Below, in pieces: positions 4,325-6,028 of a stretch of 64,000 bases of DNA (positions within the stretch are counted from its first letter, which is position 1; each line of letters opens with the position of its first letter). A program made the position numbers and the translations under genes. Source of the DNA: Minisyncoccota bacterium (GTDB lineage: Bacteria; Patescibacteriota; Minisyncoccia; Moranbacterales; UBA2206); assembly GCA_031291955.1 (NCBI GenBank), contig JARLIA010000001.1:5300-69299 (forward strand), written 5' to 3'. A model generated the notes under the pieces. That model saw only the letters and a list, made by a program, of their open reading frames with translations, was not told where the DNA came from and did not search any database.

Positions 4325-6028
4325 ATGAATTTAAAGAAGAGATTACGATATAAATTCGCGGGGGTGATTGTGCTGGCGGTTGTGGCCGGACTGATTGCTT
4401 ATCCTAAGGCGGTCGCCAAAATCCCGCCGGTTTACAATGCCCTCAACAAACTCAAAATAAACCTGGGACTGGACCTCCAGGGCGGTTTTCGTTTGGAATA
4501 TAATGCTGATCTGTCCCAGATCGATTCTGCCAAAAGAGCCGAAGCTATGCAGTCTCTCCAGGCGGCCATCGAACGGCGGGTGAATGCCTTCGGAGTGTCT
4601 GAACCGAATGTTTCCATTGCCCGTTCCGGATCAGAAGAACATCTGATTGTGGAGCTGGCCGGCGTCCGAAATGTTGAACAGGCTAAATCGATTATCAAAA
4701 GCGCGCCGCTTTTGGAATTCAAGACGGAAAAAATCGACACTCCAAATCAGATTCCGCAGACCCAGCTGGATGCCGAGAATAAAGCCGCTCAGGCTGAGGC
4801 GGACAACGTTTTGCAACTTGCCGAAAAACCTGGTGCTGATTTCGCGGCACTCGCCAAACAGTACAGCCAAGATCCAGGCTCCAAAGACAACGGTGGCGAT
4901 CTGGGTGAAGTGACCAAGGGTGAAATGGTGCCGGAGTTTGACAACGCTCTTTTTGATTCCAATCCAAAAGATTGGAACGGGGACATTTATGGCAAAGTAG
5001 TCGAATCGCAATTTGGCTGGCACATTATCAAAAAAATTTCCGCCAACGGAAGCGGCGCGACAGAAAAAATCCACGCCGCTCATATCTTACTGGCTAAAGC
5101 GACCCAGCCACAGCCGCAGGTTTCCTATGTCTCAACGGGTCTCACCGGTAAAAATTTGCAAAACGCCAAAGTTGATTTTTCCGGGCAAGATTTAGGCGGG
5201 GTGCAGATCGCTTTGCAATTCGATTCCCAGGGCGCTCAGCTATTTGATCAGATAACCAAAAACAACATTGGGAAACCGCTGGCCATATTTCTGGACGGCC
5301 AAATGATTGAGGCGCCGAACATCAAAACGGAAATTCCGAACGGCCAGGCAGTCATTACCGGCAGTTTCACGCTCGACCAGGCTAAGCAAGTGGTTCAGAA
5401 TTTGAACGAAGGCGCTTTGCCAGTGCCAATTACCTTGGTCTCTCAGGAATCGGTCGCGGCGACACTTGGTCAAACTTCTCTCACCACGGCTCTCAAGGCT
5501 GGCATAATCGGACTCATCATCGTCTTGATTTTTATGATCGTCTATTATCGCTATTTGGGACTGATCGCTTCTTTGGGACTTTTGATTTATACGGTGCTCA
5601 TGGTTTCAATTTTCAAGCTCTCACCGCTCACGCCTTGGGGGGTCACTTTCACTCTCTCCGGTATTGCCGGTCTAATTCTTTCGATCGGAATGGCGGTGGA
5701 TGCCAATGTCCTGATTTTTGAACGGACCAAAGAAGAGCTCCGGGCTGGCCGGAAGCTAAACAGTGCGGTGAATGAAGGTTTTAAACGGGCATGGCCGTCC
5801 ATCCGGGATGGAAATTTTTCTACTCTTCTCACTTCGCTCATTTTGATCTGGGTGGGAACCGGTTTTGTCAAAGGTTTTGCCATTATTCTGATTATCGGTG
5901 TGGTGGTTTCTATGTTCACGGCCATTGTTTTGGTGAAAATTATTCTGCAATTCACGCTCGGAGCGTGGGCGGAGAAAAGGATGTGGTTGATCGCGCGAGT
6001 TAAAAATTCTAAAGAAGAAAAAGTATAA
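4325..6028 (+). CDS. secD: protein-export membrane protein SecD with an inserted parvulin-type PPIase domain in the periplasmic P1 domain
   Basis: SecD motifs are present ([45 protein letters not shown]; C-terminal 6-TM bundle). Residues ~150-260 are a clear PpiC/parvulin domain ([41 protein letters not shown]…[10 protein letters not shown]). The true start is probably the ATG at 4325 (MNLKKRL…); the track's 4223 is a GTG extension. Confidence 0.9.
   Translation: [567 protein letters not shown]

What the first reader, a model, noticed from the sequence alone, without database searches (positions are those of the whole stretch)
4772..5104. Parvulin (PpiC) PPIase domain inserted into the periplasmic head domain of SecD
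Flanking residues carry canonical SecD P1 motifs: GLDLQGG upstream and [15 protein letters not shown]…ITGSFT downstream. In between is a full parvulin signature ([41 protein letters not shown]…SQFGWHIIK). An AHILL strand follows the domain rather than preceding it, which is a possible circular permutation. This would fuse a prolyl isomerase/chaperone directly to the SecDF translocation motor, exactly where nascent secretory chains emerge. It is an uncommon architecture.
Basis: partly seen in the sequence, partly recalled or inferred. Interest (0 to 1): 0.55.

Follow-up and report, generated by a model that had tools for sequence, protein, structure and literature searches.

The report
SecD with built-in permuted parvulin
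The protein-export motor subunit SecD of this candidate-phyla-radiation bacterium carries a complete but circularly permuted prolyl-isomerase (parvulin) domain spliced between the base and head of its outward-facing arm; this puts a folding helper at the point where exported proteins emerge, and the design is widespread in this bacterial group but apparently undescribed.

Summary
Window 4325..6028 (+) is one continuous 567-aa secD gene in a secA-secD-secF cluster. Residues 145-266 (window 4757..5122) are a clean 122-aa insertion between Pfam SecD_1st (P1 base) and SecDF_P1_head. The block matches the parvulin families Rotamase_3 (E 3e-23) and Rotamase (E 2e-20).

The circular permutation is supported. 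The profile match lacks the N-terminal beta1 strand. A conserved His strand ([10 protein letters not shown], aa 249-258) follows beta4 instead. Moving it to the front in silico restores an end-to-end match to canonical parvulins, and controls do not. AlphaFold2 folds the isolated insert at pLDDT 95, with that strand in a hairpin with beta4.

Active-site-type residues (S181, D183, S/T228, H233, H253) are 97-100% conserved in 120 homologues, so an active PPIase or foldase is likely.

The architecture is not rare. All 120 closest database clusters have it, as do 90 of the top 150 50%-identity clusters, some with two or more parvulin domains or a SecDF fusion. Named members are all Patescibacteria (CPR): Pacebacteria, Moranbacteria, Buchananbacteria, Kerfeldbacteria, Peregrinibacteria, Gracilibacteria.

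No paper describing it was found. I rate it a new variant of a known kind, of moderate interest.

The parts
4325..6028 (+). secD gene (567 aa plus stop). The mechanical ORF list starts at GTG 4223, but ATG 4325 matches the homologues' N-termini.
4352..4405 (+). TM1 of SecD ([18 protein letters not shown], aa 10-27), helical in the model
4448..4735 (+). N-terminal part of the P1 base (GLDLQGG motif and SecD_1st, aa 42-137), ending in the strand [10 protein letters not shown] that leads out of the base
4757..5122 (+). Inserted block, aa 145-266 (122 aa), absent from insert-less SecDs
   Evidence: BLASTP vs P0175; TtSecDF 121-159 is replaced by query 138-272
4757..5047 (+). Parvulin core in the order alpha1-alpha2-alpha3-beta2-alpha4-beta3-beta4 (aa 145-241). 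It includes S181 (4865-4867), D183 (4871-4873), M201, F205, S228 (5006-5008) and H233 (5021-5023).
5048..5065 (+). Hairpin loop GSGATE (aa 242-247) that joins beta4 to the relocated beta1
5066..5095 (+). Relocated beta1 strand [10 protein letters not shown] (aa 248-257) carrying H253 (5081-5083). This is the element that makes the domain circularly permuted.
5096..5122 (+). Linker KATQPQPQV (aa 258-266) from the parvulin to the head
5123..5425 (+). P1 head subdomain (aa 267-367; [10 protein letters not shown] ... [15 protein letters not shown] ... ITGSFT)
5429..5947 (+). TM2-TM6 of SecD (SecD_SecF_C, aa 369-541), with the invariant Asp D459 (5699-5701) in [13 protein letters not shown], which aligns with TtSecDF GAAVDGNVLSFER
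6107..7012 (+). secF, the partner subunit (TIGR00966, 286 bits)
1526..4201 (+). secA immediately upstream. The same secA-secD-secF order is seen in related locus L003.

Best explanation
This is a genuine SecD, the proton-motive-force-driven accessory subunit of the Sec translocon, working with the adjacent SecF. A single, complete parvulin-type peptidyl-prolyl isomerase domain has been spliced in exactly where the chain leaves the P1 base and enters the mobile P1 head. The domain is circularly permuted. It starts at helix alpha1 and runs through beta4. The strand that is N-terminal in every canonical parvulin (beta1, bearing the first active-site histidine) follows beta4 as a hairpin. The two ends of the insert therefore lie where the beta1-alpha1 connection would normally be, so the domain can plug into a single break in SecD.

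Shown: the insertion, its boundaries, homology to parvulins, the permuted order, a confident parvulin-like fold, strong conservation of active-site-type residues, and wide distribution in CPR bacteria.

Inferred: the domain is a working, non-phospho-specific PPIase/foldase. Tethered at the P1 base/head hinge on the trans side of the membrane, it meets unfolded secretory chains as the P1 head captures and releases them. There it would catalyse prolyl isomerisation and/or hold the chains. This would be a covalent version of the in-trans partnerships PpiD/YfgM-SecYEG, SurA-SecDF, PrsA and Mpn444-SecD.
For: - Domain scan: Rotamase_3 E 3e-23 and Rotamase E 2e-20, lying between SecD_1st and SecDF_P1_head; secD equivalog 383.8 bits.
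- Clean 122-aa insertion relative to insert-less SecD P0175, with 52-53% identity on both flanks, and relative to TtSecDF 3aqp.
- Permutation, profile coverage: the Pfam match starts at profile position 30/116.
- Permutation, junction: phmmer aligns the insert to SurA P1 alpha1..beta4 and continues into beta1 of SurA P2 (VHARHILL ~ IHAAHILL).
- Permutation, in-silico reversal: moving the trailing 21 residues to the front extends Rotamase_3 coverage from 31-112 to 13-112 and raises the score from 87.2 to 94.3 bits. Core-only, reversed, shuffled and native-upstream controls give 85.9-88.3 bits.
- The de-permuted sequence aligns end-to-end with canonical SurA P2 (6-117 vs 263-361), with 4g2p and with 2jzv, and its match to Pin1 now starts at the relocated strand.
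- AF2: in the full-length model the insert has pLDDT about 90 and strands 231-241 and 248-257 lie next to each other. The isolated insert gives pLDDT 95.3 and pTM 0.88, with the block containing the trailing strand at pLDDT about 98.
- Foldseek top hits are parvulin PPIases: 8hm4 (TM 0.71, rmsd 2.4 A, 36% identity) and PrsA 6xd8.
- Conservation in 120 homologues: S181 and D183 100%, G231 100%, W232 99%, H233 97%, H253 98%, position 228 T in 64% (S in the window).
- Breadth.
- Functional context: AlphaFold models place SurA's parvulin domains on the SecDF P1 head (PMC9987972). The P1 head cavity contacts precursors (PMC5974789). The PPIase Mpn444 cross-links to SecD (bioRxiv 10.1101/2024.09.05.611430).
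Against: - No activity data exist. Parvulin domains at the translocon can be catalytically dead (my recollection for PpiD and SurA P1, not checked here), and in two-domain relatives the first domain has lost the beta4 histidine in 20 of 20 clusters.
- The mapping of S181/D183/S228/H233/H253 onto Pin1 S111/C113/T152/H157/H59 rests on profile alignments plus my memory of the Pin1 numbering.
The full-length pTM is only 0.47.
- The score gain on de-permutation is modest, about 6 bits over controls.
- The genome has a separate SurA_N+parvulin protein, so the SecD insert is not the only extracytoplasmic parvulin.
- Close SecD relatives without the insert exist (P0175, 53% identity), so the insert is dispensable for SecD function as such.
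Confidence: 0.65

Rival explanations
1. The inserted parvulin is a catalytically silent holdase or docking module, like the PpiD parvulin domain or SurA P1. It would bind emerging chains, or recruit another factor such as YidC, SecYEG or the separate SurA_N-parvulin protein, without isomerising prolines.
For: In two-domain relatives the first parvulin has lost the beta4 His in 20 of 20 clusters and is clearly degenerate, so non-catalytic parvulin modules are tolerated at this site. SurA's parvulin domains are modelled as the contact surface for the P1 head.
Against: In the window's own clade the active-site-type residues are 97-100% conserved. The two-domain forms also keep one intact domain: beta4 His in 17 of 20 clusters and the preceding His strand in 17 of 20. 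This argues that catalysis, or at least the intact pocket, is under selection.
Confidence: 0.22
2. The insert is mainly a structural or mechanical element of the hinge. As a bulky lobe it would change the swing of the P1 head or brace it against the cell envelope, with no chaperone role.
For: It lies exactly at the base/head junction. This junction is variable across the SecD clusters, with base-to-head gaps from under 60 to over 300 residues, and E. coli SecD matches only from the head onward (aa 259-551 vs chain 314-618).
Against: A pure spacer would not be expected to keep a parvulin active-site constellation at 97-100%, nor to be a parvulin in essentially every expanded variant.
Confidence: 0.08
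3. The trailing AHILL strand is not part of the parvulin fold. It would be a vestige of a lost second parvulin or the first strand of the P1 head, so the domain is a truncated parvulin and not a permuted one.
For: In two-domain relatives the equivalent His strand lies between the two domains and, judged by His co-occurrence, serves as canonical beta1 of the second domain. The Pfam P1_head match starts at profile position 9 at aa 261, close to the strand.
Against: The window protein has only one parvulin core. H253 is 98% conserved. AF2 of the isolated insert packs the strand confidently with the domain, with a block pLDDT of about 98 and no head present. Only the true strand raises the profile score when moved to the front. 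A parvulin lacking its central beta1 would be unlikely to fold (inference).
Confidence: 0.05
4. It is an assembly or annotation artefact, such as a chimeric contig or two genes merged by a frameshift.
For: None beyond the prior that MAG assemblies can be chimeric.
Against: The ORF is continuous with no composition break. The same architecture occurs in all 120 best database clusters from independent sources (NCBI, JGI, ENA, Logan), in 90 of the top 150 50%-identity clusters and in 15 GTDB species genomes.
Confidence: 0.005

Closest known systems
Canonical SecD/SecDF (Thermus thermophilus SecDF 3AQP/5YHF, Deinococcus 5XAM/5XAN/5XAP, E. coli SecD 5MG3)
   Same: Same family and same layout: TM1, P1 base, P1 head, TM2-6 with the conserved Asp, and a separate SecF. 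phmmer E 1.6e-77 to 3aqp. P1 head and TM region are colinear.
   Different: The 39-residue segment TtSecDF 121-159 is replaced by query aa 138-272, about 96 residues more. Against the minimal SecD P0175 the inserted block is aa 145-266, and it is a parvulin domain. No solved SecD/SecDF sequence in the PDB search matched the parvulin stretch (aa 138-272).
SurA (E. coli) and its proposed docking on the SecDF P1 head
   Same: Best sequence match of the insert (E 6e-17; about 45% identity to P2 by eye). The beta4-linker-beta1 junction of the insert mirrors the SurA P1-to-P2 junction. AlphaFold models place SurA's parvulin domains on the P1 head (PMC9987972).
   Different: SurA is a soluble periplasmic protein with an N/C chaperone module and two canonical-order parvulins that acts in trans. 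Here a single permuted parvulin without a SurA_N module is covalently part of SecD.
PpiD/YfgM (E. coli) and PrsA (Firmicutes), membrane-tethered parvulin foldases at the Sec exit
   Same: A parvulin domain held at the trans face of the membrane next to the translocon (PMC9643414). PrsA parvulins are among the best sequence and fold hits.
   Different: Those are separate proteins with their own anchor and chaperone domain. The window encodes such a protein too (31190..32275), so the SecD insert is an additional, integrated copy.
Mycoplasma pneumoniae Mpn444/Mpn436 PPIase lipoproteins cross-linked to SecD
   Same: A wall-less or reduced-genome bacterium couples a parvulin PPIase physically to SecD (bioRxiv 10.1101/2024.09.05.611430).
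   Different: That association is non-covalent, and Mpn444 is a large trimeric lipoprotein. Here the coupling is a gene fusion.
Two-domain and multi-domain parvulin-SecD and SecDF variants of other CPR lineages (e.g. P0126, P0143, P0147, P0165, P0208)
   Same: Same insertion site, homologous parvulin modules and the same TGLTGK re-entry into the head.
   Different: They carry a degenerate first parvulin plus an intact second one in canonical order, followed by a His-less strand. Some have three or more modules or a SecD-SecF fusion (Peregrinibacteria/Gracilibacteria). The window protein is the minimal single-domain, fully permuted form.

Membership tests
SecD (TIGR01129 / PF21760 + PF22599 + PF02355) | Full-length match to the curated SecD equivalog model above its cut-off | tested here: met
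   TIGR01129 at 383.8 bits against a cut-off of 244.4, aa 47-541 covering model 1-397/397
SecD (TIGR01129 / PF21760 + PF22599 + PF02355) | N-terminal TM helix, then a large periplasmic P1 domain with a GG motif, base and head subdomains | tested here: met
   GLDLQGG at aa 48-54; SecD_1st E 1e-12; SecDF_P1_head E 9.5e-29; colinear with TtSecDF P1
SecD (TIGR01129 / PF21760 + PF22599 + PF02355) | C-terminal RND-type TM bundle with the conserved charged Asp in TM4 | tested here: met
   SecD_SecF_C aa 369-541. D459 in [13 protein letters not shown] is invariant in 96 sequences and aligns with GAAVDGNVLSFER of 3aqp.
SecD (TIGR01129 / PF21760 + PF22599 + PF02355) | Partner SecF encoded alongside | tested here: met
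   secF at 6107..7012, TIGR00966 at 286 bits. The same pairing is seen in 14 related loci.
SecD (TIGR01129 / PF21760 + PF22599 + PF02355) | PMF-dependent stimulation of protein translocation | not testable with these tools
   Needs biochemistry or genetics
Parvulin PPIase (PF00639 / PF13616) | Significant match to the family profile | tested here: met
   Rotamase_3 at 83 bits against a cut-off of 22.5; Rotamase at 73.8 bits against a cut-off of 21.7
Parvulin PPIase (PF00639 / PF13616) | Canonical element order beta1-alpha1-alpha2-alpha3-beta2-alpha4-beta3-beta4, with beta1 N-terminal | tested here: not met
   The profile match starts at position 30/116 and beta1 ([10 protein letters not shown]) follows beta4. 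Canonical colinearity is restored only after in-silico de-permutation. It is therefore a homologue with non-canonical, circularly permuted connectivity.
Parvulin PPIase (PF00639 / PF13616) | Parvulin three-dimensional fold | tested here: met
   AF2 insert model pLDDT 95.3. Foldseek top hits are parvulin PPIases: 8hm4 (TM 0.71, rmsd 2.4 A) and PrsA 6xd8 (TMt 0.68). Strand pairing could not be measured because coordinates were not exposed.
Parvulin PPIase (PF00639 / PF13616) | Active-site residues: two His, Cys/Asp, Ser/Thr and the hydrophobic Pro pocket | tested here: met
   H253 98%, H233 97%, D183 100%, S181 100%. Position 228 is S in the window and T in 64% of homologues. Position 201 is M in the window and F in 82%. 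F205 is 68%. The equivalence to Pin1 H59/H157/C113/S111/T152/M130/F134 comes from my memory of Pin1 numbering.
Parvulin PPIase (PF00639 / PF13616) | Measured cis-trans isomerase activity | not testable with these tools
   Needs an enzyme assay
SurA/PrsA/PpiD-type chaperone-PPIases | Parvulin domain embedded in a SurA_N-like N/C chaperone module | tested here: not met
   No SurA_N family hit in SecD. The separate ORF 31190..32275 has SurA_N_3, SurA_N_2 and Rotamase. The SecD insert works like these proteins but is not a member.

The most novel reading that the evidence does not exclude
The parvulin sits in one of the two chain connections of the hinge about which the P1 head swings under proton flow. 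It could therefore be mechanically coupled to the SecDF power stroke. That would make it an energy-coupled extracytoplasmic foldase/holdase, in which PMF-driven head movements deliver chain segments to the PPIase pocket and strip them off, in a compartment that has no ATP. The family may also preserve a natural series of single permuted, two-domain (possibly strand-swapped or nested) and multi-domain forms that records how a parvulin became circularly permuted.
Probability: 0.15. Interest if true: 0.8.

Novelty: new variant of a known kind. Interest (0 to 1): 0.5.

Why it matters
- **Evidence for a proposed partnership.** A gene fusion is independent evolutionary evidence of the 'Rosetta stone' kind that parvulin chaperones and the SecDF P1 head work together at the exit of the Sec channel. 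So far this has been proposed only from low-resolution EM, cross-linking and AlphaFold docking of separate proteins (SurA-SecDF, PpiD-SecYEG, Mpn444-SecD).
- **A simpler test system.** It offers a one-polypeptide system for testing how chaperoning is coupled to the proton-driven motor.
- **Protein evolution.** It appears to be the first noted natural circular permutation of the parvulin fold, and related two-domain forms could illuminate how the permutation arose.
- **CPR biology.** It is a conserved, lineage-marking elaboration of a core machine in organisms otherwise known for gene loss.

Tried and rejected
- **Frameshift or chimera:** rejected, because the ORF is continuous and the architecture recurs.
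- **Insertion inside the head core:** rejected in favour of the base/head junction.
- **Rare architecture:** rejected.
- **Replaces PrsA:** rejected, because a separate TM-anchored SurA_N+parvulin gene is in the window.
- **Recent duplication of that gene:** unlikely, with only 29% identity over 66 aa.
- **Non-CPR hosts:** four MAG contigs labelled Bathyarchaeia, Bdellovibrionales, Lysobacteraceae and Gammaproteobacteria carry the same secD-secF pair at 46-56% identity to the window. The 'Lysobacteraceae' contig has 29.7% GC. I treated these as mis-binned CPR contigs, which is an inference.
- **Alignment A2:** it was too divergent for the genome scan, so I replaced it with A3.
- **Cluster-member look-ups:** they named only a few variants.
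- **Papers not held:** Furukawa 2017 and Tsukazaki 2011 were not in the library, so the published residue limits of the P1 head were not checked.
- **Literature searches:** searches for a SecD-parvulin fusion or a permuted parvulin found nothing relevant. Absence from this open-access corpus does not prove absence from the literature.
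Full report
**1. What is there**

The finding lies inside one continuous ORF on the + strand. The mechanical ORF begins at GTG 4223. The ATG at 4325 ([17 protein letters not shown]...) matches the N-termini of the homologues, which gives a 567-aa protein, window 4325..6028. The gene sits between secA (about 1526..4201) and secF (6107..7012). These are followed by a 111-aa ORF and by pheS/pheT. Terminator-like and promoter-like sites at 1345-1403 and 7382-7430 bracket secA-secD-secF-orf111, which is weak evidence for one operon. 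Base composition shows no break across the insert.

**2. Domain content**

| Pfam or NCBIfam model | Residues | Score |
|---|---|---|
| SecD_1st | aa 76-134 | E 1e-12 |
| Rotamase_3 | aa 149-237 | E 3.1e-23 |
| Rotamase | aa 146-237 | E 2.3e-20 |
| SecDF_P1_head | aa 261-367 | E 9.5e-29 |
| SecD_SecF_C | aa 369-541 | E 3.7e-12 |
| TIGR01129 (secD equivalog) | aa 47-541 | 383.8 bits (cut-off 244.4) |

The Pfam rows are and the NCBIfam row. Against solved structures, the flanks align to T. thermophilus SecDF as 42-137 with 30-120 and 273-556 with 160-438. The middle aligns to SurA, PrsA and PpiC parvulins.

BLASTP against an insert-less SecD (P0175, 409 aa) pairs aa 37-144 with 21-126 (52% identity) and aa 267-542 with 123-392 (53% identity). 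In P0175 the two segments abut. The inserted block is therefore aa 145-266, window 4757..5122. It lies exactly between the strand that leaves the P1 base ([10 protein letters not shown]) and the TGLTGK start of the P1 head. The only anatomical correction is that the site is the base/head junction and not the interior of the head.

**3. Circular permutation**

- **Profile coverage.** The Pfam match begins at profile position 30 of 116, so the N-terminal beta1 strand is missing.
- **Trailing strand.** After beta4 (FGWHIIKK) comes a short loop and then [10 protein letters not shown]. phmmer aligns the insert with SurA P1 from alpha1 to beta4 and runs on into beta1 of SurA P2 (VHARHILL).
- **In-silico reversal.** Moving the trailing 21 residues to the front extends Rotamase_3 coverage from 31-112 to 13-112 and Rotamase coverage from 10-95 to 1-95. 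The Rotamase_3 score rises from 87.2 to 94.3 bits.
- **Controls.** The core alone, the reversed segment, a shuffled segment and the native upstream SecD sequence give 85.9-88.3 bits.
- **Canonical colinearity.** The de-permuted sequence aligns in one piece with the whole canonical SurA P2 domain (6-117 with 263-361). It also aligns with isolated SurA P2 (4g2p) and S. aureus PrsA (2jzv), and its match to Pin1 now starts at the relocated strand.
- **Full-length model.** AlphaFold2 with a 96-sequence alignment gives mean pLDDT 80 and about 90 over the insert. The elements are H145-167, H173-180, E192-197, H203-209, E231-241 and E248-257, so the last two strands are neighbours separated by a 6-residue loop.
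- **Isolated insert.** The insert alone folds at pLDDT 95.3 and pTM 0.88, and the block containing the trailing strand scores about 98.
- **Fold search.** The top Foldseek hits are parvulin PPIases: the B. fragilis SurA-like PPIase 8hm4 (TM 0.71, rmsd 2.4 A, 36% identity) and PrsA 6xd8.

I could not read coordinates. The pairing of beta4 with the relocated beta1 is therefore inferred from secondary structure, confidence scores and sequence, and was not measured.

**4. Is it likely to be active?**

Conservation among 120 homologues of 58-100% identity:

| Residue | Conservation |
|---|---|
| S181 | 100% |
| D183 | 100% |
| G231 | 100% |
| W232 | 99% |
| H233 | 97% |
| H253 | 98% |
| Position 228 | S in the window; T in 64% of homologues |

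From my memory of parvulin numbering, these correspond to Pin1 S111, C113 (Asp in many parvulins), H157, H59 and T152. M201 and F205 would match the proline pocket residues M130 and F134. The Pin1 basic phosphate-binding loop is absent, so I expect a non-phospho-specific parvulin of the Par10/PrsA/SurA-P2 type. Activity itself is untested.

**5. Distribution**

- **Closest relatives.** The identical protein is deposited as SecD of a Candidatus Pacebacteria MAG. All 120 best clusters have the SecD and Rotamase Pfam domains. Named ones are Pacebacteria, Moranbacteria/Moraniibacteriota and the Parcubacteria group.
- **50%-identity representatives.** A full HMMER scan with the P1 region found 239 clusters at E <= 1e-30. 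Local domain mapping of the best 150 shows 90 with a parvulin insert. Where both base and head were mapped, the base-to-head gap suggests the following split among parvulin-containing clusters:

  | Approximate size of insert | Clusters |
  |---|---|
  | About one domain | 17 |
  | About two domains | 43 |
  | Three or more domains | 12 |

- **SecD-SecF fusions.** Several clusters are fusions of 1015-1099 aa. Named homologues of one such fusion (P0147) are Peregrinibacteria, Gracilibacteria and the Patescibacteria group.
- **GTDB species genomes.** A scan found 15 loci with the SecD-parvulin junction among the 80 kept. They are named Parcubacteria, Moranbacteria, Buchananbacteria, Kerfeldbacteria and Patescibacteria. 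Four more carry odd labels, but their secD-secF genes are 46-56% identical to the window's, and one labelled 'Lysobacteraceae' has 29.7% GC. I take those four to be mis-binned.
- **Conclusion.** The architecture is a diversified trait spanning several CPR classes, and it is not a one-off.

**6. The related variants and the origin of the permutation**

The extra roughly 130-residue region in the two-domain forms is a degenerate parvulin, for example with GFYIVK in place of GxHIIK. In the 20 clusters where two domains were detected, the His pattern is as follows:

| Element | Clusters with His |
|---|---|
| beta4 of the first domain | 0 of 20 |
| Strand between the two domains | 17 of 20 |
| beta4 of the second domain | 17 of 20 |
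| Strand after the second domain | 3 of 20 |

The second domain matches the Pfam profile from position 1. The inter-domain strand therefore behaves as canonical beta1 of the second domain. The His-less trailing strand may complete the degenerate first domain, which would be a nested or strand-swapped arrangement. This is a hypothesis I could not test.

In single-domain clusters like the window's, beta4 His is present in 14 of 17 and the trailing His in 10 of 17. The family thus contains the kinds of forms expected from a duplication-and-loss route to circular permutation. The direction of change is unresolved.

**7. Mechanism**

*Established for SecDF* (review PMC5974789): the P1 head has an amphiphilic cavity that cross-links to precursors. 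It swings between membrane-facing and upright forms, coupled to proton flow, and so pulls or ratchets chains out of SecYEG.

*Established or proposed for parvulin chaperones:*
- PpiD/YfgM sit at SecYEG (PMC9643414).
- SurA binds the holo-translocon, and AlphaFold places its parvulin domains on the P1 head (PMC9987972).
- The PPIase Mpn444 cross-links to SecD.

*Inferred here:* in these CPR bacteria the partnership is hard-wired. A probably active parvulin is tethered at the P1 hinge, so segments captured and released by the head meet a prolyl isomerase or holdase at once.

The fusion is an addition and not a replacement. The window also encodes a TM-anchored SurA_N+parvulin protein, and some close SecD relatives lack the insert. 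Whether head movement is mechanically coupled to the parvulin is open.

**8. Novelty**

Database annotation calls these proteins simply SecD, although the precomputed Pfam hits show the Rotamase domain. Full-text searches found only in-trans partnerships, no SecD-parvulin fusion and no paper combining 'parvulin' with 'circular permutation' or 'circularly permuted'. The corpus is open-access only, so this is not proof of novelty.

Both components are well known. The integrated and permuted arrangement is a new variant of a known kind. Interest is moderate: it gives fusion-based support for chaperone-SecDF coupling, a natural permuted parvulin and a CPR-wide elaboration of a core machine.

Noticed in passing
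window 31190..32275 (+): A separate 361-aa protein with an N-terminal TM helix, a SurA_N-like chaperone region and a parvulin domain, so PpiD/PrsA-like. Its Pfam Rotamase match also lacks the leading beta1 (profile 11-97), and beta4 (IGYHIVRL) is followed by a beta1-like strand YKVSQIFVRT. Moving that strand to the front raises Rotamase_3 from 67.6 to 73.2 bits and extends coverage from 34-115 to 15-115. It may be a second permuted parvulin. No shuffled control was run for this one.
   Followed up: partly
proteins P0126, P0127, P0133, P0140, P0143, P0147, P0220 and others (relatives, not in the window): Two-domain parvulin inserts in SecD/SecDF. The first domain is degenerate (beta4 His 0 of 20) and the second is intact and canonical. 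His is present on the inter-domain strand (17 of 20) and mostly absent on the strand before the head (3 of 20). This suggests a nested or strand-swapped pair of parvulins.
   Followed up: partly
proteins P0164, P0165, P0169, P0189, P0200, P0207, P0208 (relatives): SecDs of 775-940 aa with 300 or more residues between P1 base and head. They contain up to three Rotamase stretches plus unassigned sequence after the parvulin. The taxon is unknown.
   Followed up: partly
loci L004, L005, L012, L019: GTDB representative MAGs labelled Bathyarchaeia archaeon, Bdellovibrionales, Lysobacteraceae (contig GC 29.7%) and Gammaproteobacteria carry CPR-type secD(parvulin)-secF contigs 46-56% identical to the window's genes. 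Bin contamination is likely.
   Followed up: partly
window 7024..7359 (+): A 111-aa Lys/Met/Gln-rich ORF directly after secF and before a terminator-like hairpin (7382-7402). It has only a sub-threshold SHOCT hit at its C-terminus (E 0.004, 17 bits against a cut-off of 27). It may be co-transcribed with secDF.
   Followed up: no
window 1..42000: Almost all long ORFs in the first 42 kb are on the + strand, and cumulative GC skew rises steadily over the 12 kb profiled. This is consistent with a leading-strand gene block.
   Followed up: no
protein P0175 (relative): A 409-aa SecD 52-53% identical to the window's SecD on both flanks but with no insert at all. The parvulin has therefore been gained or lost among fairly close relatives.
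   Followed up: partly
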